This document shows, piece after piece, positions 31,270 to 54,161 of a DNA stretch of 64,000 nt. A program made the position numbers and the translations under genes. This DNA comes from Amphiscolops sp. MND2022. Its lineage: Eukaryota. Location: the NCBI GenBank assembly GCA_964187785.1, contig OZ076409.1, positions 39,992,001 to 40,056,000 of the forward strand. The letters run 5' to 3'. The notes below the pieces were generated by a model. That model did not search any database. It was given only the letters and a program-made list of their open reading frames with translations, and was not told where the DNA came from. Position 1 is the first letter of the stretch. Every line of letters begins with the position of its first letter.

Positions 31270-31469
31270 NNNNNNNNNNNNNNNNNNNNNNNNNNNNNNN
31301 NNNNNNNNNNNNNNNNNNNNNNNNNNNNNNNNNNNNNNNNNNNNNNNNNNNNNNNNNNNNNNNNNNNNNNNNNNNNNNNNNNNNNNNNNNNNNNNNNNNN
31401 NNNNNNNNNNNNNNNNNNNNNNNNNNNNNNNNNNNNNNNNNNNNNNNNNNNNNNNNNNNNNNNNNNNNN
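31270..31469. other. Assembly gap (200 N)
   Basis: A run of N bases. Confidence 1.
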
Positions 31470-31934
31470 GATTGCATTCATTTCATCGTTAGTAATGAAT
31501 TGAAGCGTCATAACTCAACTCGACCCACTGTTGGAACCAAAATTTTCTATGTTTGAATCTATTTGAATAAAAATATTCGAGGAACCTATTTTTTACCATT
31601 GAACTTGTGACGTTTTGTAAAAATTTGAAGTACGTTTTCTTTTACCGCTAATGATCAAGGGGCTTCCGATGAATTTTTTGGTGTGAATTGTATTGGAAAA
31701 TTTATTCCATTCAAATTTTGATTTATGATTACATAGTAATTGAATTCTTCAAACCAAACCTAATTTTTGCGTTACGAAATCTACTTTGGGATGGTTTAAA
31801 ATTAGGTTCAAGCTTTCGTCAGGATTTTAAAATCAAAATTGTTCCAGTGGAAACTTAGTAACAACATTTTAAACTATCACGTACACTAAAACCAATGCCA
31901 CAAAAGTCTAAAAGTTTGTCAATCCCTTTCAACG

Positions 31935-34649
31935 TCAATTTTCTTCGTCTGAGTCTTCTCCACGATTGTCACTGTTTTCTTTTCTTGGTTCTTGACTACC
32001 GCTGCATCGGCTGCTGGTGTTTCCGGAGCTGCTCCCCGACTGGGTCTCACTGAATTCAGAGCGGGCTACCGGATCTTCATAGTCGAACATTAACTGCTCG
32101 AAGGGATGAATTGTTTTACTTGCTCGGAGGACAACATAACGTTGATTGTTGTCGGCAAATACAATGACATCAGTGGACTTCATATTGGCTTCTAAAACTG
32201 AGTGATTGGCAAGGCGACCCATACATCTACTATCAGGGTGGACAGGACACGTTTCCTCGGAGGCATTGATTATCCTTCGGCCAGGTCCTTTGACTTCAAG
32301 ACAAAACTCCCGTTTAACACCTTCAATGGCGGATACTTCGTCCATTGATGTCTTGAGGAAAACCTGCCCGTGGTAATCAATGACGACTTCATTTTTCTGG
32401 AAAGCTCGGGTGGCAACGATTCCTCGTCCAAACTTGCTAAATGAAACTTGCGTGACTCCGGGCCATTTTTGAGATCGACATCTCTCCATAAGCAAAGTTT
32501 GATCTTCAAACTCCATATTGCTTGCCAATCCTTTGTAATAAATCTTCTGAATTGCCTTGTTCGTTTCTACTTTTGGGGTAATAAATATTGGGAGCACAAG
32601 TAGATAAACTTTTCTCAGGTCTTGGTTGCCGTCATTCTGCGTCGTCCACTTCTGTCGCTGGAAATAGCTCTTCAGTCTCATTTCCAACGAAGCAAGGTCA
32701 GTTTTTCCATTCATATGCTTGAAAAAAGCATGGGCACGAGCTGATTGGCGGGCATATCTCTGTCGATCCTGGTGCCTTCTCACCGCCGACTGCACGACCT
32801 GGTAGTCCAAGGCAATGTCCAGAGTCTGCCAAATTGCTCTAGTTTGGACCTTCAACTTAGGGAGTACTGCTTCAGTGTCGTTTGCGATGGGCAACACAAC
32901 ATGAAGGTGCCGTTCCAATTCCCGCAGCGGGCTAGCACAGTGTTTCAGTACCTGTTTAAAACGATACCAACATTGAATTGTGTCTAAATGCATTCTGAAT
33001 TAATGATATCAACAGTGTACGTGTCACAGATAGATCGACCCCCGATTGGTACCAAAAACTAGCAAAACTAGCTCTACAATATAAATTGTCCCAGTTTCCA
33101 CAGATTTTCAGTATAATTTGACTTGCTCAAAGAAAGCAATGCGGAAAGCAAGACCATATCTTTAAACACATGGCGTGGAAACCACATACAAATCTTAATA
33201 CATTGCGAACTTTCACTCAAAGGGGTGTACACATTATTGCGCGTTACCATGAATGTCCTAGATTCCACGGTTTTAAGTTTGAATTGACTTACTCAAAGAA
33301 TGCATTGCGGAAAACAAGACCATATCTTCAAACACATGGCGTGGAAACCAAATACAAATCTTAATACATTGCGAACTTTCACTCAAAGGGGTATACACAT
33401 TATTGTGCGTTACCATAAATGTCCTAGTTTGCACGGTTATTGAGTATAAAACGGCTCGCTTTTAAAAGTCTTCGAGAAAAAAAGACCATATCTTTGAACA
33501 CATGGTGAAAATCGAATACAAATCCTAACTCATAGTTCTTTTCAAAGGGGTGTGATGATGATTTGTTTATACATACCGACTCCATATATTGGTCAACAAC
33601 GTGGCTAGGTCGGAAGTTGGATTTCCCAGCTGAGTTCACAAAAAACAATTCGGTGTACAGGATCCGATTGTCTGTCTCACTCAGCAGTCTTTCGAAAGGA
33701 GTCCCCTCACCGTGGTCCAGAAACTCGCTTCGAACACTCACGAAGTAGTCCACAAAGCCTTCCAATAACCATCGTGGGATATTGTAGCACGTTTTTCTGG
33801 CGCACCTCTCCGCTACATCTATCTCAAGCACGAAAGAGGCATTTTGGTCGTCTGATTCTTTCATCTGAACTGCTGCCTGCGCCACGGCGTGGACAGTCAC
33901 ATTGCTGACCTCCCGATCCAGAAAACCCAAGAATATTAAAACGTAAGCCATTAGACTTCGAAAGAACTCTATTTGGACCTTTTTCGTAGCCAGAATTCTC
34001 TTACTGCAACGCGATACATTCTCTGTTATTGTCCATTTAATGAAAGACTCCACTGTATCGGTTTTGTAATCAGGCTTCTTCTTCTTGGCGGGAACAGTCT
34101 ATAAAATGGAGAGTTTTCAAAAAGTGTCTTTATTGTATTTAAAACTGATAACGCATCCTCCAGGAATTAAAAAGTAAATTGGTTTCTATGAAACGTAACC
34201 CTTAATTGGAACGCAAAATTTGAACAAAATGTATTCAGAAGTTTTACTATACTTACCATATCAACTGGTGGGGGCATTGGACGTTTGTTTGCTACATTAT
34301 CGGAGCTTGGATGTCCATTGGACGGTTTTGGAGGAATTATGATCTCAGCTGGTAATTCGCTCTGATTGTTTAAACACTCGTTTATGACCTCTTCAGCTTC
34401 AGTCGGGAGATGTTCCGTTATTATTCCATCCTCATTGAAGCTGAATTCAGGTGGCTCTTGGAGGCGGAACGGAGTGCTGTTGAGTGGCCCGCCGGGTGTT
34501 TGGCTAAACATCACGGGCGATACCAGGGGCGTGAACAAACCAGAAGGAGTTTGCATTTGGGTTAATGTCAGAGGCGTAGACATGTCCGCGGAAGACGGTG
34601 TTGGAATTGGGGGCATCGACAAAGGCAGCGAGGTTTTATTTTGTTCCAT
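31935..34649 (-). CDS. SET-domain lysine methyltransferase (KMT5A/SET8-like type) fused to a degenerate tyrosine-recombinase-like domain; 3 exons, about 643 aa
   Basis: Exons 34649-34257, 34098-33577 and 32951-31935 join in phase 0 through GT-AG introns with no stop. SET motifs are GRGIVATRAF, VIDYHG, MGRLANHS and EQLMFDY. Exon 2 shows a YR-like pattern: AYVLIFLG..REVSNVTV, RKT, Y..VR, FFVNSAGK. Confidence 0.85.
33094..33560 (+). repeat. 166-bp tandem repeat array (about 2.5 units) in SET intron 2
   Basis: Units start at about 33094, 33261 and 33427 (TTCCACGG...CAAAGAATGCAATGCGGAAAACAAGACCATATCTTTAAACACATGGCGTGGAAACC...). Confidence 0.9.
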
Positions 34650-34947
34650 TTAGGAAAGTTAGATCTTCTATTTTGACGGTCTGATTTTCAGAGACCATTT
34701 CAAGATAATGATTGTAGATTTCGAATATTTGTTGATATGAATTACGATAATATCTGATATTTAGTAATTAGTAGTGCCATATCCGGCTGTGCAACCGAAA
34801 TCCTCAATCTTAAATGAGGCATGTAAAAAGCGTTATTTCGGAATGAGGCTAGTGTCTTCATTTCCAATTATTCCTAATAGTGCACCTGCTTCGTAATTAG
34901 GTGACGATTAGCTGTAATTAATTTGGGATGCAACCAATCTCGTTAGC

Positions 34948-35267
34948 GTCTTCTTTAACGCTCATCCCATCAACATTCATCACATAAAAGGTCTACATAT
35001 TCTATTAGTTTCGAGCTTTAAAATAAAGTCTTCTTTAACGCTCATCCCATCAACATTCACCACATAAGGGGTTTACACATTCTATTAGTTTCGAGCTTTA
35101 AAATAAAGTCTTCTTTAACGCTCATCCCATCAATATTCACCACATAAGGGGTCTACATGTTTTATTAGTTTCGAGCTTTCAAATAAAGTCTTCTTTACCG
35201 CTCATCCCATCAATATTCACCACATAAAGTGTCTACACATTCTATTAGTTTCGAGCTTTAAAATAAA
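34948..35267 (+). repeat. 4 x 80-bp tandem repeat between the divergent SET and Tudor-like genes
   Basis: The unit GTCTTCTTTAACGCTCATCCCATCAA...GTTTCGAGCTTTAAAATAAA starts at 34948, 35028, 35108 and 35188. The array ends one base before the ATG at 35269. Confidence 0.95.
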
Positions 35268-35268
35268 A

Positions 35269-36679
35269 ATGCTTCTCCAAACCTTCTATGAAAATGAAGT
35301 TGTGCAAATCTTGGATCCTGCGACATCAATTTGGGAATCAGCGAAAATAATGTCCTTTGTGAGCGATTGGTGTGTAAGAATTGAATGGGTCGATTGGTCT
35401 TACAATAAAAAAGAAGAAATCACTGTTCCCGAAGTATACAGACCTGACAAAAATTACTGGAATATTAGAAAATCCCACAATCTTGTCCGCGAAGAAACTG
35501 TGAGCAACAAAAGACGGTCAACACCTCTTAGCTACAACGCTCGTCGACTGGTCAGAAACGATCAAATTTACTTTTGGCAACCAGAATGTAACTGTGTAGA
35601 TAGCGAAAGATGCCAAGAGGACCGTTGCTGCGGGTCAGTTGTGATGGGTTGGGTAAAAATTAATGACCCTTTCTGTCAACAATGTTTGATAACTGACGTG
35701 GAGGACAATGATGAGTATGTTTCGTATCTCTAACTAAGAAATAAACCTTGTGTAAGAGACACTGAACCAGAAATTGATGAAACTGAACAAGGTCATGAAT
35801 CAGGATCTGACGTACATCGCCCATTCGTCAAAAAGCAAGCCCGTGTGACAAGCGCCACCCAACCGATGCCACAAGTCGACATTCTTTCCTTGCTTCCCAG
35901 TGTTGACGATGACGTTGAATTAACATATGCACCCTGTGAAAATGATATCATAAAGGTAATGTTTTCTTGCTTTTTTGCTTACAAACTTTGCTTTTGAATT
36001 TTGATAACCCTGGATTGGCACCAAATTTTTCAAAGTATTTTTCCCACCAAACATTTGTTCAATCTTTTTATTTTCAGGTGGGATCTATTGCATCTTACGC
36101 AAATGATGATTTTGAAATCAAGATGATTTACTATGATCATCAGAAGAGAAAAGCATGTGCATTCATGCAGAGCAGAAGTGACCCTGACATTGAAGTGCGC
36201 ATCCCGACAATTCGTGTTGTCACAACAACATCTTCTAAAGGCGATGTAATGGATTTTAATTCGCTTCTGGAGCCCATGGACCAAGCATATGCTTTGTTTT
36301 CTGCAATAAAACGAATGGTGGGACTCTCAAGAAAGAAGCATTCCTTAACCGCAACATTAGTTCCCTGTACCCACTGACAAAAAAACTCTGTGGCTTCGAA
36401 ACTGGCAATCTCAAAGAGGCCGTTAAGTATAGCGTTGCAAACCAAGAGGGACATAAATGGTGCAACGGTACATGGGATACTGTACTTGGAAGAAATTGGG
36501 ATATGATCCCATGTCACGCAAGCGATGGAGAAGATGTTCTTATAAAGACAATGAGGTTCATTGAACATCGAGAATTTGGCATGTTGACGATTCGTGTCCA
36601 GTTTTTGTCAAGCCAAGGCCACTACAAAAACAGCCAATATAGAGATCTGAGTCGAAATGTACCTGTCTCAGATGCATGA
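35269..36679 (+). pseudogene. Gene with N-terminal Tudor/chromo-barrel (Royal family)-like domain; 2 exons, premature TAA and one frameshift
   Basis: The N-terminus FYENEVVQILDPATSIWESAKIMSFVSDWCVRIEWVDWSYNKKEEI fits a five-strand barrel with aromatic-cage-like Trp residues. The frame continues past TAA at 35731-33 to a GT-AG intron at 35956-36077. After a shift at about 36260-36375 it stays open to TGA at 36677-79. Confidence 0.55.
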
Positions 36680-36949
36680 AATACTCTTAAATACTCCTAA
36701 ATTTTAAAAAAACTTTCTATTCGTGTTTGATCATTTTTTGTTTGTTCAACAATTTATCTTTCATCATTATTAGTAATTATTACAATATAAGCTCCATGAC
36801 CTTGTATTCTTGAAAATTCTTGAGAAAAGTCTTAGACTATCGAATTACTTTATTCTGAAATGTAATGCACTTGTCACATATAGATCAACCCCTGATTGGT
36901 ACCAAAAATGATACAATCTCAACAATTTCCGGGATTTCATTTGCATGTT

Positions 36950-37400
36950 TTCCAACTTTTTTCAGGATATTTGATTTGCACCAAAAAGCAATGCGGAAAA
37001 CAAGGACACATCCTAAAAAACATGGCATGAAATCCAAACACAAATCGTAATGCATTGCTCAATTCTGTTCGTCTCGGTTTCCACGGATTTTCAGTAAAAT
37101 TTGACTTGCTCGAAGAATGCAATGCGGAAATCAAGACCATATCTTTAAACACATGCCGTGGAAACCAAATACAAATCTTAATACATTGCGAACTTTCACT
37201 CAAAGGGGTATGTATGTATGCAGACACCGGATTGCGCATTACCATAAATGTCCTGGTTTCCACGGTATTTAAGTGAAAATTGACTTGCTCAAAGAAAGCA
37301 ATGCGGAAAACAAGGACATATCTTTAAACGCATGGCGTGGAAACCAAACACAAGTCCTAATACGTTGCTCAATTTCATTCGAAGGGGCGTAGTCATGGTT
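36950..37400 (+). repeat. 166-bp repeat family array (intergenic)
   Basis: The same unit as 33094-33560, more diverged. Confidence 0.85.
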
Positions 37401-37789
37401 TTCAGAAAATAATCAAACAATTTTTGTTTTTCTTTTTTTATTACCTTTTGAGTATTTCCAATCAGATAACACTTTACCAAGATGAAAGAAACAGTCCTGA
37501 GAAGTGAAAACTTCTAATTACGAGTGATAAGACTTAATGGAAGACTCTTTTGCATCTGATTGTGATTATTGACAAAATGGCCTTGGGTGATATGGACTCA
37601 AATTATTAAAGTATAATTGAACCGTAATTCATCAGTTTAATGAACAGACTCAAAACCGGACTCATTTCACTTGTGGGTTTGTGTACCTAATTGCATTTCA
37701 TTTTATTGTATATAAGGGTTGCAGTCTGACAAATGTTCTACAATCTATACAATTTCACTTTGCAATAAACCTAAGAACCAGCTTTAGAA

Positions 37790-40717
37790 ATGACTCCACT
37801 GTCAATGTGGGAAAGAAATATTATCGAAGCGGAAAATGGGAAATTCTTCGCTAACTGTCGACTTTTTGACGATATATCCGGAAAAGAAATACCGAATAAG
37901 TTTCGGACGTTCGAGACACTTTTTGGGGAAATGTTGACTGGGACAAATTTAAATTCAAAAGAATTCACTCGAAGAATTGCTGTTAAAGGCCAGAAAACCC
38001 CCCTGTATTTGTAGCAGCAAAATTGGCAAAACTACTTGTACTGCGTGGATTTAAAGACTTCCCTTGGAACTCAGCCAGAAGAGAGTTTGTCAGTTTGTTT
38101 TTCAATAATGATGTCATACCATATCACAATCCTTACATGAAAGACACCCTTGTGACACCTGCAGATGCGACTCCTGAAGATTCGGCCCCTGAAGGTCAAG
38201 TCAGTGACAATTCTCTCTCAAAAGAAAGAAAGCTAGAAATATCAGACGCCAAAAAAGTCAAACATGAACAAACTGATCCAATTAGAACAGATCTGATCAG
38301 AAGTTGGGTTCAACAGTTTCATGAAAAAAATCAAAAGCTCTGCAAATAAGAGAAAAGATCAACGATTCACAAAAAAAGAGGACCCAAACTTAGTCAAAAA
38401 AATTGTAGAAGATCTTTTCGAAAAAAGAGGATCTACTGATGAGTTCAGGCACCATTTATCTCTTGTCACGAAAACGGGTAACACGGAAGATGTTATAAAA
38501 GTTATTCGAACAAGACTTTCAATTGTTGGACTCGGATACAATTTAGTCCCATGCATTCGATTGGTCAAGAAGTCAACATCCGAAATTCAGTCCTACTTTA
38601 CAGCAATGTGTGAGCCAGAAAGAACCTTTTCTGGTTTTCGCTGCAACCTGATAAAATGCGTGGAGACGGTGTCATACTTCTTGTTTGGAACGAAAGAACT
38701 CAATGGCCAACGAGTTGATATCTGGGGAGATGGTTGTGAAATTGGAGGTGTCGAAACAACACGAATTGCATTCCGGATCCTTACTGACAAAATGAAGTGT
38801 CAATCATCCGATGCAGTATTCTGTTTTGCTGCATACAGGGGTAAAGATAGTAGATTCGCAATGGAGCAAAACCTTGGACCAACTATAGCTGGAGTTCAAG
38901 AGTCTGGTTGGCTTTTTATGAAGACCCTGGAACTATCAAAACGCGGAGTTAAATTAACATACAGTGGCGATTCGCCGTTTTTAATGAGATTGGTGCTCGG
39001 AATCACAAATGAATCAGCTAGCACATCGAAAATACCACTCTATATAACAGAACTTGATTACACACCAACAAAATGTCATCATGAAACTGGTCCACGATCT
39101 GATGTTATTATACCCTTCAGAACGGATCTTCCAAAATCTTCCTTGGTCTTCTACGAAAATATACAATCAGTTTGTCCTGATGCCACGCATATGACCACCC
39201 GTTGTGTTGAAAATGACCTCCAAAGAATTGCACAGAAAATTATCAGAGAAAAGCATCCTAATCATGATGTAGCAATTCGCCAGCTTGAAGAAAACTTGAC
39301 AAGAAGAGATGCGAAGAGACCATACTTTCAGTTCAACATATCTCATAGAAGTGGTTCGTGTATCGGTACTGTAGGTGCAGTATCCCTCTCAGGTGGTAGT
39401 GCTCTAGCGGTCATTGCTGATAAAGAGGAGCTTGCAGGTGCAAAAGACGGTAAAATTAGCGATCTTTACCATGGTGTTTGGGGTCCCGAAGCTATCATTG
39501 TTGGCAGTGAAGAAAACGCAAATGTCCCTTGCGTTAACATCCTAAGAAACTGGTTTCCTAAACTTTTCAATAAAGATAACCCCAAGCAAAAAGAGTCCAA
39601 TGACAAATTCATATCTGCTTTTGATGCTTGCGAACTCCTGCGATCGAGTTTAAACCAATGTGTTTTATGTCTGCGAGCAGAAGAATTCAACAGTGAAACG
39701 TTCAAAAAATGGGCTGAAGTTTATTACCAAACCAATATCTTGATAATCGGGCATGCCGGTTTGACACCTTATAAATTGAAAATGCTGATGTTTCCTCAAC
39801 TTGTTGAGAGTGGATATATAAAAAGACCATTTGATCATTTGTGTGAAGGTCTTGAAAAATCGAACCACCAAGCTAATCGTGGCTTTCAGACAAAGACAAT
39901 GCGCGGAGGAGGTAAGATCTATCACAAGGATCCACTATTCCTCGAGTCGTCCTTTTCTTTCTTGAAATTTTTAAGATTCGCAGTTGAAGTTGAAGACAAA
40001 GGGTCGGACGCTGAACCAACTTCTAAGATTATCATGGAACCTGAACAAGACGCAACAACAGAGGTCTACTTTGATGACCATAATATGACTGGAAACAGAA
40101 AGATCTATCAGACAGTTTCGAACAGTACCACAAACAGCGTAATGAGTATAATTCATAGTGCAACAAAAGTGATGGGCATTGACGTTCCGGGACCTGAGTA
40201 CCTTGATATTTGCCGCATAGAACCACCGTTAACAACTATCGCCATTGGATGTCAAGAAAATCCTTTAAGTGGATTAGGATTTTGTCTGCTTGGTCGCTTG
40301 GGTACTTGGAAAAAACATAATCTAACACATGACATGGTGAAACAATTGATCATCAAAATGGGAGGAACTGTTCTAGAAAATGAACAAGCTGACGTGTTGA
40401 TGAGCACCCATTCACAGCTCCCCAATTGTTTTGTTCTCGTCAAGGACGAAAAAGACTTAATCTTAGGTACCGGTTCCACAGAGGAAATTAATGACATGAA
40501 GAAACCAAGGAAAAGAGGGTCATCAGCAACACGGGAGGGTGGAAATGAACCATCACAATATTCCAAAATAGCAAAACGATTCGCAGCTGGGGGTTTCAAA
40601 TTCTTGAATATCGAATTTTTATCTGAAGTTGACGAGAAAAAAACGCTGATTGACCCGGAGCCATACATTCTTCAGCCCGGATCCAAACTTGTTGAAAATC
40701 GTGTCAACGACAAATGA
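37790..40717 (+). CDS. RAG1/Transib-like DDE transposase with C-terminal BRCT-like domain (about 975 aa if two homopolymer frameshifts are corrected)
   Basis: The 798-aa ORF 38321-40717 has DIWGDG (D at about 38729), SGDSPFL..LG (D at about 38969), CPDATH (about 39179-39190) and CEGLEKSNH (E at about 39854). These parallel RAG1 CDG, YDEKL..GL, DALH and SEGNESGN. The BRCT-like part runs PLSGLGFCLLG..VKQLIIKMGGTV...IEFL..IDPEPYIL (about 40262-40672). Upstream ORFs at 37790 and 38023 join by 1-nt changes in C6 (about 38000) and A7 (about 38325). Confidence 0.78.
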
Positions 40718-41009
40718 CCTTTGTTCTTGGACCAATGCAGTGGAAAAACACTGGGTGAAGGTGTATCTGCGATTGTCGCTCTCAAGAGATACCGTGATGG
40801 CACTTTTAAACAACTTTCGTTTTGATTTACTGTTCTCTTCTAATTCATATGTTACCCGAACTTGAAACTATTCAATAAATTCTTCAAAAATAAGTATTTT
40901 CATTAGGTTTATTGTGATGCTCCTACGAAACTAGTTTTACATATCATAGATTGGTGCCAAAAAGCACACAATATTGGGCTCCGTTTCGGCAAACTTTCGT
41001 TTGTCTTGG

Positions 41010-41220
41010 TTTCCACAAATTGAATGCGCATTACCACAAATGTCCTAGTTTCCACGGTTTCAAGTTTGAATTGACTTACTCAAAGAATGCAATGCGGAAA
41101 ACAAGACCATATCTTTAAACACATGGCGTGGAAACCAAATGCAAATCTTAATACATTGCGAACTTTCACTCAAAGGGGTATACACATCATTGCGCGTTAC
41201 CATAAATGTCCTGGTTTCCA
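41010..41220 (+). repeat. 166-bp repeat family (about 1.2 units, intergenic)
   Basis: The same unit as 33094-33560. Confidence 0.88.
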
Positions 41221-43380
41221 TTGAGTTGTTACCTAGCGGAAATTCACTGTTGAGGTATACTCCTGATTTTCTCTCCTATTATTCTTGCATAATCTTGGAA
41301 ATTATTGCATTAGACGTCCAAACGTTTCAAAGCATGTTTTGAATAATTGAGAATTTTTTCAATTCATTTTCCAATTAAATTTCTTGCGCTCGTCACTGAA
41401 CAAAACAGATTGTAAGGTATTTGGCAGTTTTGTCATTTATTTGTATGATACTGAAAATCTAAATCTGAATCTACAGTTTAATCTAAATCTAAAATGTCTA
41501 GTTCAAGGGGGATTGAGCGGATTCCCGTAATGGCAGCAACAAGAGGACATCGTTTTGGGTGCAAAGATGGATCTACCATCTTTGCCGGCAAGAGAGTTCT
41601 TCCCTTGCCTTTAACATGGGTAACCATCATTGCAGGTTTTGACTCGAGTTCTAGTAGATCCGTTGTCGTCATTACTTCCTCGTAGCTTTTTGTGTAGGGG
41701 TCAACAGCGATGGGCACATGCTCTGGAACAGTAAGAGCCTTACTGGGGTCAGTATTCTTCTCGGGATGCTCTCTCAAATAACTGCGGCTGCTGCTTGGTG
41801 GCTCACGCAGTGTCACTGAAGCTCTTTTTTGGCCCAGTACGATGTGAAGTCTTTCAGGACTGAAATCGGGTAGCACCTGTAAAACGTAAAAATCAAACTT
41901 TAAACCTGGAGAGCAAACTTTCAATTGAAAAATCCGAAATATTTTTGGTATAGTTCTTGTTCATTGACTTAGAAGCACAAAATTTCACTCAGTTGTGTTT
42001 TACTTGCATGTATATCAGTCAGACATGAATGTAGAGGATGATCAATTGAAAAAAGCAAGACTTGTTCATAAACATAAGTTTTTGAACTAGAAAATGACCC
42101 TCGATTGGAACCAAAATGGATATGATTGAAAATGGAAAATAGAAGTTTTGTTACCAAACAAAACTGAAGGCTTAACAATCTTACTTCACCGAATTTTTTG
42201 AACTAGAAAATGACCTTCGATTGGAACCAAAATCGAGATGATTGAAAATGGAAAATTGAAGTTTTGTGACCAAACAAGAATGAAGGCTTAACAATCTTAC
42301 TTCACGGGCGGCGTGTTCATTGTATAGTGATTGCACTGTGCTGTACATCGACACCAGGCGTCGACAGAGTCGAGGGCACAGCTTTTCGGCAATACGGTAC
42401 ATCAGAAGTACCAACATCTCTGGAAGATCAGGGAACTTGTCATCGGATCTTCTCGGGAACTCGACGAAGATTGAGTGTCTTATTATGGGCAGGTGCCCGA
42501 ACGCCAGGAAGTTCGTTCCCAACGAAATGGCATTGCCTTTCGTAAGTACAAAGTGGAGGAAATTTGCGGGCATGACTAGAACATCTCCAGCTGTGACATG
42601 CAACCGCAAACATCCCTCTTCCAGCTGGTCGATGTTCCCGAAGAATGTTGGCCTGAAAGTAAAAGTACATCGAAGTTGCTTTTCTAATTTTTTGACATCA
42701 ATAGAAGTAAACTAGAAAAAAGTTTAAATATTTGAAAAGAGACGTTAAATGCTTGCTTGTTGTTTTCCATCACCAAAAAATGTTAGTCAAAAAGTATAAT
42801 TTTTTGTTTTTGAAAATAGAACAGTGTTCTTGAAGACAATAAAGTTGGTGTATTAGTTAAGTTTTGTTACTTACGTAGTGTCGTTCTCAGGATTCGACCA
42901 TCTTTCAAAAATACTGAGGTTTTTCTTCGACGGTTTCACTAAGAAGAAAATCTTCTCTCCAGTTAGAACTGTGTAAAACACAGACGTCGAAGAATAATCC
43001 TGATGCCACGTCGTGTGCGCAGAATCTTGAGTGACCAGGACATAATAGGAAGTAGAACAAGAGTAAGGCTCGGTTCACGACTTCCCGATCTCCCTGTCGG
43101 CCAAATGGTTGATGGAGTTGTCAGCCACCATCTTGGGTACTGTGTATATGGCCTTGGAGAGTGTCCTGACATCGATGACGTTTAGAGGGTAATACCGACT
43201 GCCTGGATGACAGTTGGCCAGCTCCACGAAAAACTCGTCATACGTCATTTCTCGTGTCTGCAAAAAAACATCTATTTAATGATGCTAGGCAAGGTTCTAA
43301 TTCATGTTATCAACAGTATACTTGTCACAGGTAGATCGGACCTGGATTGGTACCAAAACGAACTCGACATAACTGTCCCA

Positions 43381-44020
43381 GTTTCCACGGATTTTCAGTA
43401 TAATTTGACTTGCTCAAAGAAAGCATTGCGGAAAGCAAGACCATATCTTTAAACACATGGCGTGGAAACCACATACAAATCCTAATACATTGCGAACTTT
43501 CACTCAAAGGGGTATACACATTATTGCGCGTTACCATGAATGTCCTAGATTCCACGGTTTTAAGTTTGAATTGACTTACTCAAAGAATGCCATGCGGAAA
43601 ACAAGACCATATCTTTAAACACATGGCGTGGAAACCAAATACAAATCCTAATACATTGCGAACTTTCACTCAAAGGGGTATACACATCATTGCGCGTTAC
43701 CAGGAATGTCCTAGTTTCCACGGTTTTAAGTTTGAATTGACTTAATCAAAGAATGCAATGCGGAAAACAAGACCATATCTTTAAACACATGGCGTGGAAA
43801 CCAAATACAAATCTTAATACATTGCGAACTTTCACTCAAAGGGGTATACACATCATTGCGCGTTACCAGAAATGTCCTAGTTTCCACGGTTTTAAGTTTG
43901 AATTGACTTACTCAAAGAATGCAATGCGGAAAACAAGACCATATCTTTAAACACACGGCGTGGAAACCAGATACAAATCCTAATACATTGCAGAACCTCA
44001 CTTGAAGAGGTATACCCATG
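43381..44020 (+). repeat. 166-bp tandem repeat array (about 3.8 units) in a JmjC intron
   Basis: Units start at about 43381, 43548, 43714 and 43880. Confidence 0.92.
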
Positions 44021-44605
44021 GTTTGTGTTTTGGAACAACTAAATTCGGTTTTACTAAATGCTAAACATGGTTCAAACGAGTAAAAAGTGTTTTTTACCTC
44101 TCCGATTTTGGCTGACTTGACTTCAATTGGAGCATCAGGTTCAGCAAGGTTGACCGGTCGCAGAAGCCGTTTGATCTCCGCGACAAAGCCTTTTTTCGCG
44201 GAGAATTTTGGGATTTTCAGTCCTGTGCAATGCTTGGCTCCATTTCTCCAAATCAAGGGGACACTATGTCGAAGAAGGTGACCAAGGTGTTCGGTTTGAT
44301 TGTCATGGGGACCCTGCCACTCAGCGTAGGAAAATTGACATTCCAGAGGCACGTTTTCGCAAAATGCGAAGTGCTCTTGGGTAACAAATGGGGCCGCTGG
44401 AGTCCCAGAATTGAATGTCAAATCAAGTGGCATCGGTGGTTGGGCAATTTGACATTTGACTGATCTCGCAATGTGGTTCCTTAGGCTGTAGCCGTACCCG
44501 AATGAGGTCCCACACGAAATGCCGAAATGACGGCTTCTTTTTTTCCTCTCGCAGCTTCTGTAATTTCAAAGACAATTTATCAAATGAATGTCCAAAATTT
44601 TTTCT

Positions 44606-44762
44606 CATGAATTTCATTCATGGTATGACCCATGATTGGAACCAAAAATCTTCCAAGATTTCATGAATGCTTTCATAGTATGACCCATGATTGGAACCAA
44701 AAATCTTCCAAAGATTTTATGAATGCTTTCATGGTATGACCCATGATTGGAACCAAAATCCT
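44606..44762 (+). repeat. 3 x ~55-bp tandem repeat in a JmjC intron
   Basis: The unit is ATGAATGCTTTCATGGTATGACCCATGATTGGAACCAAAAATCTTCCAAGATTT. Confidence 0.9.
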
Positions 44763-46539
44763 TCCCGAAAATTTGTGTTTTTAGACCTTCCCTTTCACAT
44801 CAGAAAAACATTGCCCTTCTTTTTCTATTGCATACGGTAATCGGTTCAAGACCGTAAAATATTTCAAAACAAGAAAAAAAATTCTGGAAACAATCTTAAC
44901 ACTAACGGTATTGGTACATCCTGACTTCTTCTCCAGCAGCAATCTTTTCTTGTTGCTTCGTGCAATATTTGGCTCTTCTTTGATGGCGCTCTTTACTTTT
45001 TTTGGTCGTGAAAATCTGACCACATTTCTCGCACGTCAAATTCTGGGCAACTTGTTCCTGCTTGCTGACACTTTTGCATCCGGGAAGATGACGGGTTAAG
45101 TGCCATTTTCTTCCAGCAACGTAGTCGCAATTCGAACACGGGAAACCTAAACATAGCCTTTTGAATTATACGAGATGAAGAAGTCAAATAAAAAACCAAC
45201 CTATACATACAATATACATACCAAAATCAGATTGTTTTCCACGAGTTACAAAAATGATAGGTTCATTTAGATTGCTCGAAACTTTGAAAAATGGTAGACA
45301 TGATATATTGATCCACGTGATGTTTGATTTGTCAAACTATTTATCATTTCAATTTCAATATCAAAAAATGGAGATTGTCGCTTGTCATTTGGAATTGTCA
45401 AAACGAGTACAAGAACGAGTAAATGGAAGTCTTACGTTTTTTAGGTGGCGGAGTTGTATCTCGAAATTCGTCACAGAGTTGTCGTTTTCGGTTTTCTGGC
45501 AAACCAGGGCAAGTGCGGGCATGAACAGCAAGGGCTTCTCGAGTGGGGGCATAATGGTCGCAAGCACCGATTGTGCAGAGATGACCTGAGTAATAAAACA
45601 ACGATGAAAATATATACAAAAAATGTGAATATATTCAAAAATTATTTTTTGAACACCGCTGTTCATACAGCCTCAAAATTTCATTACAAATAAATCCAAA
45701 TAAAGTAAAGAAACGTTCATCAAAACTTCAAACATTTTTCACCTTCGCAGTTGAATTTACCCGTTTCAGAGGTTTGATAGTTTTTGACCTTTTTCACTGA
45801 TAGTCAAGAAAAAGTAACGCAGGAATTAACGACTTACCAAGGAACAGTTCTGATGATGAGTCAGATGAGTCCCTGTGGGATCTAAAGTTCTGCGAAGTGC
45901 TGGGTCCGCTGGGTCCGGGGGCTTGCTCAGAAGTACTTTGCTCAGAAGCAGCTGTTTTCTTCGATTTCGACTGTAACAACTTGAAAATGTGAATAAAAGG
46001 TCCAAAATATCAAGTGCAAATAACATGAAATTTAAATTAGTTCAAATATCGAAGACAAAATTGTTTACGAGAAAGTTTGGATCTTTCCGTCTCATCCCCC
46101 CATCGATTTAAGTCCCCCAGTTATTATTAAATAAAAGTTTTATAAATTACCATTAAAAAAAATTAAAGTATCTCATTAAACATACAATTTTTTGGAAAAG
46201 AATCTGCGTAAAACAATTTGAAAGTTATCAGGACACTGTTTGAAAAACTGCCCTAAACTTTGAACCAGAATCTGCTTCTCAGTTGTAAAATCAATTACAG
46301 TAGGGGGCTTTTATAACGACCCAAAGGGGCAGTTGATTTTAAACTGATAATTTCCTGATAAAATCCAAAAACAGTTTCTTGGAATTTGGGATTAAAATTG
46401 AAACAAGTAGAAGCCAAGACGCAATGAATAGCTAACTTTAATTTCGACGCTCTGAATACTTTTGTTTATTCCAATCTTGGAACCAATCTTTGGAAAAAAT
46501 CCATAAGCAAAATCAATACAAAGACACTTTAGTGAATTC

Positions 46540-46701
46540 CCAAATAACATAAGAGCAAATATCATAAAACGAAATTAGTTTCAAATAACAAAAATGAAAT
46601 GAGTTTGACATTATAAAATAAAATTGTTTACGAGAAAGTTTCATTTTCATGTTATTTGAACCTAATTTTGTTTTTATGCTATTTGCTCTTATGTTATTTG
46701 G
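46540..46701. repeat. Inverted repeat (about 60-bp arms, about 40-bp spacer) in JmjC intron 1
   Basis: CCAAATAACATAAGAGCAAAT... at 46540 pairs with ...ATTTGCTCTTATGTTATTTGG ending at 46701. Confidence 0.85.
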
Positions 46702-48464
46702 TACCTAATCGACAATTTTTCAACCAAAAATTTATTTCCGAAAACAAAAAAATCAACTTACCATTATGATTGGCTTCAGGTTATATCCGTTGATTGGCTG
46801 AGGGTAGTATCGGCTGCTGGATGTCTGCAAAACTTTGAGTTGTTGAGAGAATCAAAGAGAGATTCAATTGGAGATTCTGGCTTGTTAATCAGTTAACAGT
46901 CCGAACGGTGAGAAAACAAGTTTGACAATGAAAACTGCTGGTCAGTTAGCAATCGGTCAGTTGCTGTGATACGCGCCGCTGATACGAGCCGCTGATTAGC
47001 CAATAGGAATCACCCACAGTTGGAACAGTCATCAGTTTGGTACGAGTTGCTGATACGCGCCGCTGATTAGCAAGGAAAATACTCACGATTGTAACAGGAA
47101 TGATTTTGATACGAGCCGCTGATACGCGACGCTGGTGAGCTTTCAAGCGATGACCGATAAGGCAATAACAATCATATCTGTTCTAATATTGTTGACAAGC
47201 AATAAGTTTAAAAGCAAATATAAAGCAGTTTCTCGATGACCGTGTAAATTCGAGAATGTTCTAGAAAATATTTGAAAAAAATATTCGAATACGAAAAATC
47301 TTAATCTTTTGCTGTTTATTCTTCGCCTCGAATCTTGATAAAATTCAGTACGAATTTGGCCTCTAAACCTGAAGCATAATACATCATTGGTTGCTTTCAT
47401 TTTCACGCCCGAAACGATCAATAGAAACCGATAATCTATAGTTAACGATTTCAAATATCGTTCAAATAGATATCATTTTGATTAATTTTGCTCAGATTCG
47501 ACCCATGATTGGAACCAAAATCTCCCCATTTCTCCACTCTAATTATTCAAATAAATTTTTCATTTTCCAGTATAATTTATTTCAGTATAAATGTAGTATT
47601 TCACTCTTGTGTATCACTATAGTATAAAAATATTCCAGTATAGTATAGTGAACATTATAGTTAAGTATAGTACAAGTAACCTGAATCTTTTCAATTGCAT
47701 TCTAATTGACTATTTTAATCAAATTTTTATTTTTATTTATCTAAGCAGCTTTACGATTCGACCCACGATTGGAACCAAAATCCCCCGAATTCCACGAAGA
47801 TTTTAAAATTTCATTGAAATAATTTATTCCAGTTGATATAAATGTATTTCACTTTTGTATATCACTATGTACAATCAGTATAAATATTTTGCACTTTGGT
47901 AAAGTGTTGAAAGAAGTTTTCCTTTTTCGTTTTTTTTTTAAAATTCATTTTCAAATTTCATTTTTTCAAATTCAAATGCAGTCTGTATAATTGTAGTACG
48001 ATAGTATAGTAGTATAGTATAGTATAGATGAAAGGAAGAGAAGCCGACAGTTTTACGGAAAGAGAGACATTGATTAACTTGTTTGTGGAAATTGACTTTG
48101 TATTTACTCTCCGGCTTATTAAATTTGATTTCAGCTAATTAAAATGTGAGTGGAAAGTAAGACGCTGAAATTTGCAGCCATCTGATTGGTTGTAATGCAC
48201 TTTGTGGAATCCAAGACACGAATTTGGCGGCATCTTGTCGGCATTTGTCGGCATATTTTTGGTCCCAGTTTCCGCAAAATGAAACCGGCTAACGTATTAA
48301 CCCATGCCCTCGGATTCCGAAAAACGCCGATTTTCGTGGCGTGGATTCCGCAAAATCAGTGCTAAATTGCCAATTTTGCACGCTTTAAGACATGTCTGCG
48401 TAATCGGAGGGCCTACACGCACAGAAATGTGTCTGTAGCGATTTAGCTTGCAGATGCACAGTAA

Positions 48465-50630
48465 TGAAGGCAGTGGTAGGCTTGTGAGCAGTCGAGTTTG
48501 CAGAACAATTGTTTCCCCGCTAGGTGTTGTGCCGCATCTGAGAGGGTGCTGATGGGGTGGTTGTTGTTAATGTAGTCGTCTGAGGTGAGGGCGTTGATCT
48601 TCCGCAAGTCCACCATGAGCCTCAGTTTGCCGTTGGGTTTGCGTTGCGCAAAAATGGGGCTAGCAGATTTCGAAAATGGGAGGGTTGTGATGATCCCATA
48701 CTTATGCATCAGTGCTAGCTCTACGGTGAGGTCATCTTTGAGGTTGATGTGTACCGGTAGACTCTGTGTGTATACTGGTTTGTCGTTTTTGGGGGATAGC
48801 CAGACTTTGATTCATTCCGATGTCTAGCCGGTGGCGTGCGAAGATGTCGTTGAATTTGACTAGGATGGACTCTAGATTTTCACGATTTTCTCCCGTTATT
48901 AACGAATCATTCCATTTGAACAATGAGAGGAATTGTGATCTGGATTTTTTGTCTTGTTTGGGGTCCAGTTCTTCTAGTTTTGTAGTTGTCGTAGTTCTCG
49001 TAGAATGCGCTGCTGGATGGGTGTGTGTTCCGATTCGTCTCCGGGATCTTCGGGAGTGGGGAACTAGTTTTTTTCTTCTGTTTGTTCTGGAGAGTCGATT
49101 TGTTTTAGTGCATTTACGTACGCAACGACATCGTCATGTTCTGTGAGTAGATTGAGTGCTGCCAGGTCTACGGCTCGTATTGATTTCGTTTCCTCGGGTT
49201 TCAGTGTTTGTAGTTCGGCTAATTTAGTGTGTGGCGTTATTGTATAGCGGAAGTCTGTGATGTTCGCTATTTTTATCGCTACTCGTTTGTCTCGGGCTGT
49301 TGTTATTGCTGGAGCTACTATAAGTTTTGCATTTTCGTCAAACTGTGGTAGGGGTTGGACTGTACCCGTTATTGGGTGAACGTTACTGACAGTAATGGAC
49401 GCGTGGATGATCCGTGCGGCCTGGGCTGGGATGGTGTGTTTTTCTTCTGTCTTGATGGTGATGGGTTTGGGGTTGCGCTTTTGCATTTCATCCTTTAGGG
49501 CTAGGGTGATTTGTATTTGGGGGAAGTCTATTGTGCCTTGTGCAGTATCTAGGATTGCGGAATGTTTCCGGAGAAATGCCAGAACGATGATTGGGTAGGA
49601 TGTTGTGGTCATGATGATGAAGGTCTCTTCGAACGTGTAGCCGCCGATTTTGAATTTCATTGTGTATGTCGCGAGAGTTTTTTCGAGTTCGGTGTTGGCA
49701 TATTGTATTTTGAAAGGGGCGGAGGGGCCTTTGCAATTATGGCTGTATTGGCTTCGCTTTGTATCTTGTCTGCATCGGTTTCGCTGATGACGTTGATGTA
49801 GGCTCCCGAATCTCCTAGTGCATCGATTCTGGTGTTTTTGAAGTCAAGGGGGATGAAAAGCATTCTCCTCTTCTTTTTGAGGGTAATTGCTGACATCAAC
49901 GGAAGGTAGTCGTCGTCTTTGTCATGTTGAATGAACTCCTTTATGACATTGAGGTCATAGGACAGTTGTTGTGTGCATTCCGTTATTTCTTCGTTTTCGC
50001 GGTGGTTTTCCAGTGTTGGTAGTTTCGAGTGCTGTTTTTGGAGGTGATACTGTAGAAGCTGCCTTCTCTCGTTGTTCTCTTTCTTGTTGTGTCCATATTG
50101 TTTTATCTTCGATGCAGATGATGTTCCCTGCATCTATCGGTGTGGACGTGATGGTGACGGGTACTGTCGGGGACGATGTTGTCCTTTTTAGGATTGGTGA
50201 CGGCGGTGATGGTAAGTTTGTAATCTCTGTGGATTGGGCTTGAGGGTATGGAACCTGGAGTTCAAAAGAGAGTTTGTTCGTGTCATAAATCGTTGGTTCG
50301 TCCCAGGGATCGCATCTATAGTCTCTATCCTATATGTAGGTGCGCTCAGTTTTTGATTCTGGTAGGGGTCTCTTGAGTGTGGCGTATTTATCTGGTGACT
50401 TCGTTATCCATTGTGGTAGTGGTGTTGGATCTTCTGGGTGTCGGGCATTGTGTCTATGTATCATGCCTACATTCCAGCGGCGTTGCCAGTCCTGGGTTGG
50501 TTCCTCGTTGCATTCTGTGAGAAAATCTTCATCATATCTATTTGGGGGGGGGGGTCTTCTTTCGTGTACGGCCTTGCGTCTAGCGTTTCCCCAAAGCGGA
50601 GGCGCGGCGCTTTTAGTTTTTTGGCTGGAT
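48465..50630 (-). pseudogene. pol: Gypsy B pol 5' part (aspartic protease, N-terminal RT), truncated
   Basis: The protease motif is DALGDSGAYINVIS. RT reads ITTLPFSKSASPIFAQRKPNGKLRLMVDLRKIN...KLDCSQAYHCL and then breaks abruptly at about 48464. Confidence 0.9.
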
Positions 50631-54033: not shown

Positions 54034-54161
54034 AGGGAATAATTGTCCTCTTTATCATTTCTCATTTCCTGTACCATTTTGTCAAGTTAACTAGTTTAAA
54101 CTAGTTAACTTGAGAAAATGATACAGGAAATGAGAGATCATAAAGAGGACAATTATTCCCT
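54034..54161. repeat. 128-bp near-perfect palindrome (MITE-like)
   Basis: AGGGAATAATTGTCCTCTTTAT...TTAACTAGTTT|AAACTAGTTAA...ATAAAGAGGACAATTATTCCCT is centred at 54097/54098 with only a few mismatches. Confidence 0.92.

What the first reader, a model, noticed from the sequence alone, without database searches (positions are those of the whole stretch)
31470..48463. Candidate giant DNA transposon carrying a lysine-methylation writer, reader and eraser
Seen: within about 17 kb lie a DDE transposase (37790-40717 +), a SET gene (34649-31935 -), a Tudor/chromo-barrel-like gene (35269-36679 +) and a ZnF-JmjC gene (46764-41478 -). All four are interleaved with the same 166-bp repeat and 21-bp motif, and flanked only by other transposable elements. 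Known: SET domains add methyl-lysine, KDM2/KDM7-type JmjC domains remove it and Royal-family barrels bind it. Inference: this is one mobile unit that may edit its own chromatin state, for example to escape silencing or to choose targets. I am not aware of a described RAG1/Transib-like element with this complete cargo, but I cannot search the literature here.
Basis: partly seen in the sequence, partly recalled or inferred. Interest (0 to 1): 0.92.

Follow-up and report, generated by a model that had tools for sequence, protein, structure and literature searches.

The report
Giant transposon carrying histone-methylation enzymes
This is a recently jumping 18-kilobase DNA transposon whose RAG1-like cutting enzyme always travels with genes resembling a histone-methyl writer, eraser and reader, suggesting a parasite that manages its own chromatin to avoid being silenced.

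Summary
Confirmed as one mobile unit. The repeat pattern has 1,101 exact matches in the genome, and some copies are over 99.7% identical. The transposase has a RAG1/Transib fold, an invariant D-D-E triad and a BRCT domain, but no conserved C(2)C/H(3-4)H zinc motifs, so it is not a standard Transib. Five subfamilies (97% down to 36% transposase identity) keep all three cargo genes in three different gene orders, under purifying selection and with catalytic motifs kept: a SETD8-like SET, a zinc-finger JmjC nearest PHF8/KDM7A, and a probable tandem Tudor (weakest call). The 166-bp repeat and 21-bp motif lie only in non-coding parts of the element in the DNA examined, and are homogenised within subfamilies, as VANDAL anti-silencing targets are. 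Best inference: self-targeted chromatin editing. Expression, splicing, enzyme activity and substrates are untested. In this copy only SET is intact. SET-carrying transposons are known; ten literature searches found no SET+JmjC+Tudor set, but Repbase was not searchable.

The parts
31470..48466 (+). Left-truncated copy of the transposon (intact copies 17,118-18,593 bp); corresponds to base 1587 to the end of intact copy A
   Evidence: 98-99% identical to G000:C3 copy A; 39 of 39 other scored loci end at the same place
48445..48466 (-). Right terminal inverted repeat, 22 bp, reading CATTACTGTGCATCTGCAAGCT inward; the left TIR (one mismatch) is missing in this copy
31935..34649 (-). SET-domain gene, 643 aa, open. 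Predicted exons 34649-34257, 34098-33577, 32951-31935: low-complexity N-terminus, unassigned middle domain, SETD8-like SET domain
   Evidence: splicing predicted from GT-AG sites and A-vs-C conservation, not seen in RNA
35269..36679 (+). Probable tandem-Tudor gene, 429 aa in intact copies; exons 35269-35955 and 36078-36679. Broken here (stop 35731-35733, 1-bp loss near 36370)
   Evidence: intronless 431-aa ORF in subfamily C confirms the splice; fold leads
37790..40825 (+). Intronless DDE transposase, RAG1/Transib fold plus C-terminal BRCT, 1012 aa in intact copies (D315, D395, E690). Broken here (losses near 37998 and 38297, stop 40715-40717)
41478..46764 (-). Zinc-finger JmjC gene, about 709 aa: four C2H2/C2HC-type fingers, then a PHF8/KDM7-like JmjC. 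Predicted exons 46764-46762, 45979-45838, 45585-45436, 45146-44907, 44557-44098, 43257-42875, 42652-42301, 41876-41478. Broken here (1-bp loss near 44538, stop in exon 6)
33081..33528 (+). 166-bp unit, 2.7 tandem copies, in SET intron 2
36985..37390 (+). 166-bp unit copies between the Tudor-like gene and the transposase
41016..41227 (+). 166-bp unit between the transposase and JmjC 3' ends
43374..44019 (+). 166-bp unit, 3.9 tandem copies, in JmjC intron 5
31522..47780 (+). Twelve dispersed copies of the 21-bp motif (31522, 33037, 36006, 36887, 42096, 42212, 43338, 44627, 44682, 44738, 47500, 47760), all on one strand, all in predicted introns, spacers or arms
34948..35267 (+). Four 80-bp tandem repeats between the divergent starts of the SET and Tudor-like genes
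47814..48007 (+). Subterminal segment of about 195 bp that recurs in the same orientation in the left arm of intact copies (87-93% identical)
31270..31469 (.). 200-N assembly gap that cuts off the left arm (not part of the element)

Best explanation
An autonomous, recently active cut-and-paste DNA transposon of an unclassified RAG1/Transib-fold lineage that carries an obligatory three-gene chromatin kit. SHOWN: shared ends, 22-bp TIRs, 2-bp duplications, many near-identical dispersed copies, short non-autonomous derivatives, and long-term retention of all three cargo genes under purifying selection. INFERRED mechanism: the transposase binds the TIRs, excises the element and inserts it with a 2-bp stagger. 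The zinc fingers of the JmjC protein bind the element's own non-coding motifs (166-bp unit and/or 21-bp motif), and its PHF8/KDM7-type active site removes repressive histone methyl marks over the element. The SETD8-like enzyme lays an alternative methyl-lysine mark (H4K20-like by kinship), and the Tudor-like protein binds that mark and holds the state or links it to the transposase. The result is sequence-specific self-protection from silencing: a histone-based analogue of the plant VANDAL/VANC system, with its own enzymes.
For: Co-occurrence at fixed offsets: 25 of 36 transposase hits at 90% or more identity have all three cargo genes (lower bound, searches capped); JmjC lies beside 19 of 20 subfamily C and 31 of 41 subfamily D transposase hits. 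One fetched copy each of subfamilies A, B, C, D and E holds all four genes, in three different orders. Cargo identity falls in step with transposase identity. dN/dS A-vs-B: SET 0.25, JmjC 0.43, Tudor 0.37, transposase 0.59; A-vs-C: Tudor 0.09, transposase 0.12, and SET and JmjC synonymous sites saturated with pN about 0.21. JmjC HxD, K and distal H, and SET GRG, YHG, RLxNH and F/YDY motifs are kept in all five. Nearest solved relatives: PHF8 E=1.6e-11 and KDM7A, SETD8 E=1.3e-5. The repeats are non-coding, mostly co-oriented, about 83% identical A-vs-C where synonymous sites differ at 60-77%, and cluster by subfamily (D units one group, 100/100); the VANDAL paper describes these traits for VANC targets. 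No CpG depletion or CpG-biased mutation, which fits a host that silences by histone marks rather than 5mC.
Against: Nothing shows transcription, splicing, catalysis or substrate. SET is only weakly similar to SETD8 (E about 1e-5), so H4K20 specificity is a guess. The Tudor-like model has mean pLDDT 37.9, Foldseek E of 0.011 or worse and best Z 7.8, within the range of common folds. A writer and an eraser of possibly the same mark in one element is not obviously an anti-silencing design. The repeats could be transposase-binding or promoter sites instead. Subfamily E has a different repeated motif, not the 166-bp unit. SET and JmjC were found beside the transposase in one genome only: 0 of 14 short metagenome contigs had them. 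The CpG result rests on 8 transitions at CpG sites.
Confidence: 0.5

Rival explanations
1. Break-repair or target-choice kit. The cargo works at the DNA breaks the transposase makes: SET writes H4K20 methylation, Tudor plus the transposase BRCT mimic or compete with 53BP1, and JmjC resets the mark, steering repair of the donor site or choice of insertion site rather than transcription.
For: SETD8 writes and PHF8 erases H4K20me1, and 53BP1 reads H4K20me2 through its Tudor domain to favour end-joining (PMC8897848 passages). The nearest relatives here are these classes, with BRCT fused to the transposase (Z 11.8, rmsd 2.1 A, 93 residues). 53BP1 and BAHCC1 tandem Tudors are among the fold hits, not at the top. 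The Tudor-like gene is the most constant neighbour, also beside distantly related transposases (best tblastn segments 34-38% identical) in 4 of 14 metagenome loci.
Against: Does not explain zinc fingers on the JmjC or the subfamily-specific internal repeats. Flanks show no obvious target sequence (TA in only 6 of 18 duplications). Substrates untested.
Confidence: 0.25
2. Private methyl switch: SET and JmjC act on the element's own proteins (for example the transposase), with Tudor as sensor, giving copy-number or timing control without touching host histones.
For: SETD8 also methylates non-histone proteins. A writer, eraser and reader in one unit is the natural form of a self-contained switch. 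Cargo diverges in step with the transposase.
Against: Zinc fingers point to DNA targeting; no methylation site on the transposase was identified.
Confidence: 0.15
3. Passive cargo: captured host-gene fragments hitchhiking in a large element (Pack-type), with internal satellite growth.
For: Large DNA transposons do capture host genes (established knowledge; Kojima calls TET transmission between elements 'passive'). Three of four genes in the window copy are broken.
Against: dN/dS well under 1, open spliced frames in young copies, catalytic motifs kept at 26-39% identity, and retention through two gene-order rearrangements.
Confidence: 0.05
4. Host gene cluster or assembly artefact with a transposase inserted by chance.
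For: An assembly gap abuts the left side.
Against: Dozens of dispersed copies with different flanks and matching 2-bp duplications; the window's right end interrupts a reverse-transcriptase frame.
Confidence: 0.01

Closest known systems
Transib / RAG1 / ProtoRAG (BbRAGL)
   Same: Best structural matches: RAG1 Z 16.6 (rmsd 6.3, 450 aligned), BbRAGL Z 16.0 (4.4, 414), HzTransib Z 10.9 (7.0, 370); Foldseek E 9.6e-7; Atlas feature score 0.95 to RAG1 clusters. D-D-E triad; termini start with CA.
   Different: 10-12% sequence identity; no Pfam RAG1 hit in 41 of 41 members; 2-bp instead of 5-bp TSD; no conserved C(2)C/H(3-4)H; C-terminal BRCT; no RAG2-like gene seen; three chromatin cargo genes.
CMCT clade (EnSpm/CACTA, Mirage, Chapaev, Plavaka, ESTA, Lanisha; Kojima 2025, PMC12730594)
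   Same: 5'-CA..TG-3' termini and a TSD within the stated 2-5 bp range; large multi-gene elements with subterminal repeats (CACTA trait, recalled).
   Different: The clade's shared C(2)C and H(3-4)H motifs are not conserved; the TSD is any dinucleotide, not TA-specific as in ESTA.
HarbingerS and oomycete MuDR elements encoding SET methyltransferases
   Same: DNA transposon carrying a SET gene (stated in the introduction of PMC12730594; the Repbase Reports it cites were not seen).
   Different: Different transposase superfamily; no JmjC or Tudor partner stated in what I read.
VANDAL/VANC anti-silencing (Hosaka 2017, PMC5735166)
   Same: Motifs in co-oriented tandem repeats in introns, spacers and ends that evolve with the subfamily.
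   Different: VANDAL is a plant MuDR acting on DNA methylation; here the candidate binder is fused to a histone-demethylase-like domain and comes with a SET and a Tudor-like gene.
TET/JBP-carrying fungal transposons; KDM4-like JmjC genes in endogenised giant viruses (PMC11244446)
   Same: Mobile DNA carrying an eraser enzyme, proposed to counter silencing.
   Different: TET acts on 5mC; the viral JmjCs are KDM4-type and stand alone; neither comes with writer and reader in a DDE transposon.

Membership tests
Cut-and-paste DDE transposon | Terminal inverted repeats at sharp shared ends | tested here: met
   22-bp TIRs; 39 of 39 other loci share the right end; 1,101 exact matches against 0 for the control
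Cut-and-paste DDE transposon | Target-site duplication | tested here: met
   2 bp in 18 of 19 paired ends, plus TA in the subfamily C copy
Cut-and-paste DDE transposon | RNase H-fold transposase with D-D-E triad | tested here: met
   D315 24 of 24, D395 34 of 34, E690 37 of 37 among rows covering the site, 41 rows in all; fold. Assigning these as the catalytic three rests on recalled RAG1 motifs.
Transib | 5-bp TSD | tested here: not met
   0 of 19. A 2026 preprint reports Transib elements with 3-bp and TA TSDs, so this alone does not exclude kinship.
Transib | CACAATG-like terminal heptamer | tested here: not met
   Termini read CATTACA; heptamer as stated
Transib / CMCT clade | [quoted passage not shown] | tested here: not met
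   No conserved column pair; 2 of 30 rows have any CxxC, 7 of 30 any H(3-4)H, 0 of 30 both
CMCT clade | CA..TG termini and 2-5 bp TSD | tested here: met
CMCT clade | Phylogenetic placement among Repbase transposases | not testable with these tools
   No reference transposase set was available
ESTA | TA-specific TSD | tested here: not met
   TA in 6 of 18 duplications
KDM2/KDM7 JmjC demethylases | HxD...H iron ligands and 2-oxoglutarate lysine; nearest relatives PHF8/KDM7A | tested here: met
KDM2/KDM7 JmjC demethylases | PHD (or CXXC) companion domain | tested here: inconclusive
   Only C2H2-type fingers were found in the exons scanned; the gene model is predicted
KDM2/KDM7 JmjC demethylases | Histone demethylase activity | not testable with these tools
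   needs an assay
SETD8/KMT5A | SET domain with SAM-binding motifs; nearest solved relative | tested here: met
   Pfam E=6.7e-11; top 14 of 24 PDB hits are SETD8, best E=1.3e-5
SETD8/KMT5A | H4K20 monomethylation | not testable with these tools
   Phe at the product-specificity position in A-D and Tyr in E; meaning of that switch recalled, not tested
Tudor / Royal family readers | Tudor barrel fold | tested here: inconclusive
   Top Foldseek and VIA rows are mostly Tudor/Agenet barrels, best Z 7.8, rmsd 1.2 A, 51 aligned, from a pLDDT 37.9 model; no Pfam hit
Tudor / Royal family readers | Aromatic cage binding methyl-lysine | tested here: inconclusive
   Conserved Trp pattern in the first barrel of all five subfamilies; geometry not resolved
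VANDAL-type anti-silencing system | Element-encoded protein binds element-specific tandem motifs and lifts silencing | not testable with these tools
   Repeat anatomy matches; binding needs ChIP or EMSA

The most novel reading that the evidence does not exclude
An unnamed superfamily-level lineage of zinc-motif-less RAG1-fold transposons with a BRCT-fused transposase that encodes a complete, sequence-targeted histone-methylation writer-reader-eraser circuit (possibly on H4K20), co-evolving with its own binding repeats: a selfish element running a private chromatin code, with a Tudor gene as a RAG2-like chromatin-reading partner.
Probability: 0.35. Interest if true: 0.93.

Novelty: new variant of a known kind. 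Interest (0 to 1): 0.82.

Why it matters
Transposons that carry one epigenetic enzyme are known. One that has kept a matched writer, eraser and probable reader through deep divergence and gene shuffling suggests a whole counter-silencing or repair-steering circuit. It makes a standing question testable: how DNA transposons stay active in genomes that seem to lack CpG methylation of repeats. Near-identical intact copies exist, so the enzymes, the zinc-finger targets and the transposase can be assayed directly. It also adds a branch to the RAG1/Transib structural family with a chromatin-reader partner gene, relevant to how RAG-type recombinases became coupled to histone marks, and offers a naturally sequence-targeted histone demethylase.

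Tried and rejected
No RNA holder was listed; the one run found gave sparse contigs with no splice joints, so expression and splicing are open. Complex prediction of the transposase core with the Tudor-like protein gave no verdict. Sequence search of solved structures with the transposase profile found nothing under E 0.85. Viral contigs: 69 pattern matches, none a relative. Rfam: 0 matches in 29000-50000. Earlier scan findings: none in 3 look-ups. A tyrosine-recombinase reading of the SET protein's middle domain: no Pfam hit; the Atlas gave unnamed eukaryotic clusters and one weak cluster with PF00589 on 13% of members; kept as a lead only. Ends of subfamilies D and E were not found, so TIR and TSD are shown for A, B and C only. 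No genome-wide count of the 166-bp unit was obtained. Two motif patterns (JmjC HxD; SET NH for A-C) were written too strictly and returned nothing; those motifs are read. In one search the 'D TPASE' row covers only a 109-codon fragment and was not used. A 5-bp TSD, Transib membership and ESTA membership were rejected (see membership tests). Iyer et al. 2014 (KDZ transposons) was not held, so its cargo list was not checked. The supplement of PMC12730594 was listed but not opened, and bioRxiv supplements were not seen; they may bear on classification.
Full report
SETTING. The window is G000:C1:39992001-40056000 of an unnamed 1.07-Gb assembly in 1,929 contigs. Spliceosomal-type introns and LTR-retrotransposon genes show that it is eukaryotic.

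OBSERVATION. Pfam finds SET (E=6.7e-11), C2H2 fingers (E=2.1e-6) and only a weak BRCT in the window's frames. Exons were predicted from GT-AG sites and from where conservation between subfamilies A and C starts and stops. The SET gene is open (643 aa). The other three are broken in this copy: indels near 36370, 37998, 38297 and 44538, and stops at 35731, 40715 and in JmjC exon 6. Copies A (C3) and B (C2) have open frames for transposase and Tudor-like gene; the spliced JmjC (709 aa) and SET (643 aa) were read through fully in A, and exon by exon in B.

IT IS ONE MOBILE UNIT. The transposase has 60 match rows in the genome (56 of 1,417 candidates scored). I compared 56 rows (four second pieces dropped) with the SET, Tudor and JmjC hit lists (93 of 119, 40 of 41 and 33 of 108 rows; second pieces and repeat-only rows dropped). 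SET lies at the expected side and strand for 47 of 56, and all three cargo genes for 25 of the 36 rows at 90% identity or more, at nearly constant offsets. These are lower bounds, because the DNA searches scored only 33-40 candidates. A protein search with a JmjC exon (150 of 1,390 candidates scored) places JmjC beside 19 of 20 subfamily C and 31 of 41 subfamily D transposase hits. All 39 other loci scored with the right-hand region stop matching at window 48466-48470, and 20 of 20 fetched right flanks differ from each other after the same terminus. The left end, missing here behind a 200-N gap, was read from other copies. The ends are 22-bp inverted repeats, CATTACAGTGCATCTGCAAGCT (one mismatch in A, perfect in B). 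Of 19 paired ends, 18 have a 2-bp duplication of varied sequence (TA in 6), and none has 3, 4 or 5 bp; three of the 19 are short non-autonomous derivatives. A degenerate TIR pattern has 1,101 exact matches in the genome against 0 for the reversed control. Six B-type transposase loci are 99.74-99.97% identical to copy B, and 15 A-type loci differ by a median 0.84%: transposition is recent. In the window the right end interrupts a reverse-transcriptase frame.

THE CARGO IS OLD AND SELECTED. One copy each of five subfamilies was examined. A (18,593 bp), B (17,832 bp) and C (17,118 bp, own perfect 22-bp TIR, TA duplication) share the order SET(-) Tudor(+) transposase(+) JmjC(-). D (53% transposase identity) has JmjC(+) Tudor(-) SET(+) transposase(+); E (36%) has Tudor(-) transposase(+) SET(-) JmjC(-). 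The ends of D and E were not found. Amino-acid identity to A in aligned codons (B/C/D/E): SET 97/66/54/27%, JmjC 93/66/52/39%, Tudor 97/75/54/26%. dN/dS (Nei-Gojobori, my script) A-vs-B is 0.25 SET, 0.43 JmjC, 0.37 Tudor, 0.59 transposase; A-vs-C is 0.09 Tudor and 0.12 transposase, with SET and JmjC synonymous sites saturated (pS 0.77 and 0.75; pN 0.21 and 0.22). Outside this genome, 14 metagenome contigs (1.1-7.4 kb) encode related transposases; 4 of 14 (L087, L088, L091, L093) carry a Tudor-like homologue divergently upstream (best E=2e-27), and 0 of 14 show SET or JmjC, though most are too short to tell. Transposase relatives number 357 clusters at E up to 0.001; the ten looked up carry no name in the members read.

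TRANSPOSASE. AlphaFold2 on a 41-sequence alignment gave mean pLDDT 83.9. Structural search ranks RAG1 (Z 16.6), amphioxus BbRAGL (16.0), HzTransib (10.9) and P element (9.8) for the core, and BRCT domains (Z 11.8) for residues 824-966. No CACTA, Mirage or Chapaev structure appeared in the lists; I recall none being solved, so this ranking cannot choose within the clade. D315, D395 and E690 are invariant where covered. Kojima 2025 states that CMCT elements share CA..TG termini, 2-5 bp TSDs and C(2)C plus H(3-4)H motifs. The first two are met; the motifs are not (0 of 30 rows have both). It works like a RAG1/Transib-type transposase but is not filed as Transib or standard CMCT.

CARGO PROTEINS. 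The JmjC exon is nearest PHF8 (E=1.6e-11), KDM7A and PHF2, then KDM2A. HxD, the 2-oxoglutarate lysine and the distal His are kept in A-E. Four C2H2/C2HC-type fingers precede it (sequence; Pfam support for three). The SET domain is nearest SETD8 (top 14 of 24 hits), with Phe at the product-specificity position in A-D and Tyr in E (from recall, Phe there allows dimethylation). The SET protein's middle domain is unassigned. The Tudor-like protein has no Pfam hit. Its model is poor (pLDDT 37.9) but shows two small beta barrels, and the top fold matches are mostly Tudor/Agenet domains (Foldseek E 0.011 and weaker, VIA Z up to 7.8). I treat 'reader' as probable, not shown.

REPEATS. In the window the 166-bp unit (10 cores) and the 21-bp motif (12) lie only in predicted introns, spacers and arms, all on one strand; neither occurs in 60,488 bp of flank held from eight loci. 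Both have counterparts in C and D; E has a different repeated motif. Median unit identity is 0.83 A-C, 0.64 A-D and 0.91 D-D, far above synonymous-site identity. In a tree of 36 units the 14 D units form one group (100/100), the 15 A and B units intermix in one group (94/89) and the 7 C units lie apart without forming one group. So the repeats are conserved, homogenised within subfamilies, and probably protein-binding sites. VANDAL's VANC targets have the same anatomy. A genome-wide count was not obtained, so an unrelated satellite is not formally excluded. CpG observed/expected is 0.9-1.0 in the element and its neighbours, and private transitions are no more frequent at CpG (0.0027 per site) than at other C/G (0.0028), suggesting little repeat CpG methylation in this host; counts are small.

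MECHANISM. Shown: mobility, co-inheritance, selection, intact-looking active sites. Inferred (0.5): zinc-finger JmjC binds the internal motifs and strips repressive marks; SET and Tudor write and read an alternative mark; the element keeps itself expressed. Rival (0.25): the SETD8-PHF8-Tudor-BRCT set mirrors the H4K20/53BP1 repair axis and steers break repair or target choice. Rival (0.15): a private switch on the element's own proteins. Passive cargo (0.05) and host cluster (0.01) are disfavoured. These roles are not exclusive.

LITERATURE. Ten searches of open PubMed Central and bioRxiv found no transposon with SET, JmjC and Tudor together; two searches returned 0 papers. Seen: PMC12730594 (abstract, introduction, passages, figure legends), PMC5735166 (passages), bioRxiv 2026.08.26.747230 (abstract and two sections), PMC11244446 (passages), PMC8897848 (passages), bioRxiv 2021.09.26.461848 (passages, nothing bearing). 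Repbase Reports, subscription journals and Iyer 2014 were not seen, so the family may already have a name.

VERDICT. New variant of a known kind (transposons carrying chromatin enzymes), possibly a new transposase lineage. Interest 0.82.

Noticed in passing
window 31270-31469; L031 3009-3208; L032 2637-2836; L035 (minus strand) 2662-2861: Four of the seven copies whose left arm was first inspected have a 200-N scaffold gap within about 400 bp of the same place in the arm; in three of them the DNA beyond the gap is unrelated. The element may be causing contig breaks or mis-joins.
   Followed up: partly
window 48467-52200: Decayed gypsy-like LTR retrotransposon on the minus strand (gag with zinc knuckle, reverse transcriptase); the transposon's right end cuts its RT frame. 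The other half is not seen left of the gap.
   Followed up: partly
window 8672-10616 and 25704-27568: Two about 1.9-kb direct repeats (89-96% identical) 17 kb apart, with RT and integrase-like frames between them (12606-16011); probably the LTRs of another retrotransposon with nested insertions.
   Followed up: no
G000:C12:9717282-9719514; C6:49074673-49076935; C3:10236101-10238535 and others: Non-autonomous 1-3.4 kb derivatives that keep both arms and TIRs; three checked have 2-bp duplications.
   Followed up: partly
one search list, contig C1: The commonest TIR variant (with AGG in the middle) belongs to a subfamily not examined here and mostly appears unpaired, so its other end probably differs.
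   Followed up: no
L097 2902-3414 and 104-616: Subfamily D has an extra duplicated segment with a Cys-x2-Cys open frame upstream of JmjC, and carries retroelement fragments shared by at least two copies; D elements exceed 24 kb.
   Followed up: partly
L082 2721-3066: In subfamily C two repeat units form a 346-bp near-perfect palindrome (92%) between the transposase and JmjC genes.
   Followed up: no
window 33577-34098: The middle domain of the SET protein matches unnamed mollusc, arthropod and chordate protein clusters (Atlas score up to 0.96) and weakly a cluster in which 13% of members carry a phage-integrase family; a degenerate tyrosine-recombinase-like DNA-binding domain is possible.
   Followed up: partly
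L087 5883-6887 (-): A PLAC8-family gene lies just downstream of the distant transposase in this metagenome contig (Pfam E=1.3e-11); cargo or host neighbour unknown.
   Followed up: no
window 54034-54161: 128-bp near-perfect palindrome (two 64-nt arms, 94% complementary, no spacer) outside the element.
   Followed up: no
G000:C1406:18088-153541: SET hits recur every 45 kb on this contig, suggesting a tandem array of subfamily C-like elements or a larger repeated unit.
   Followed up: no
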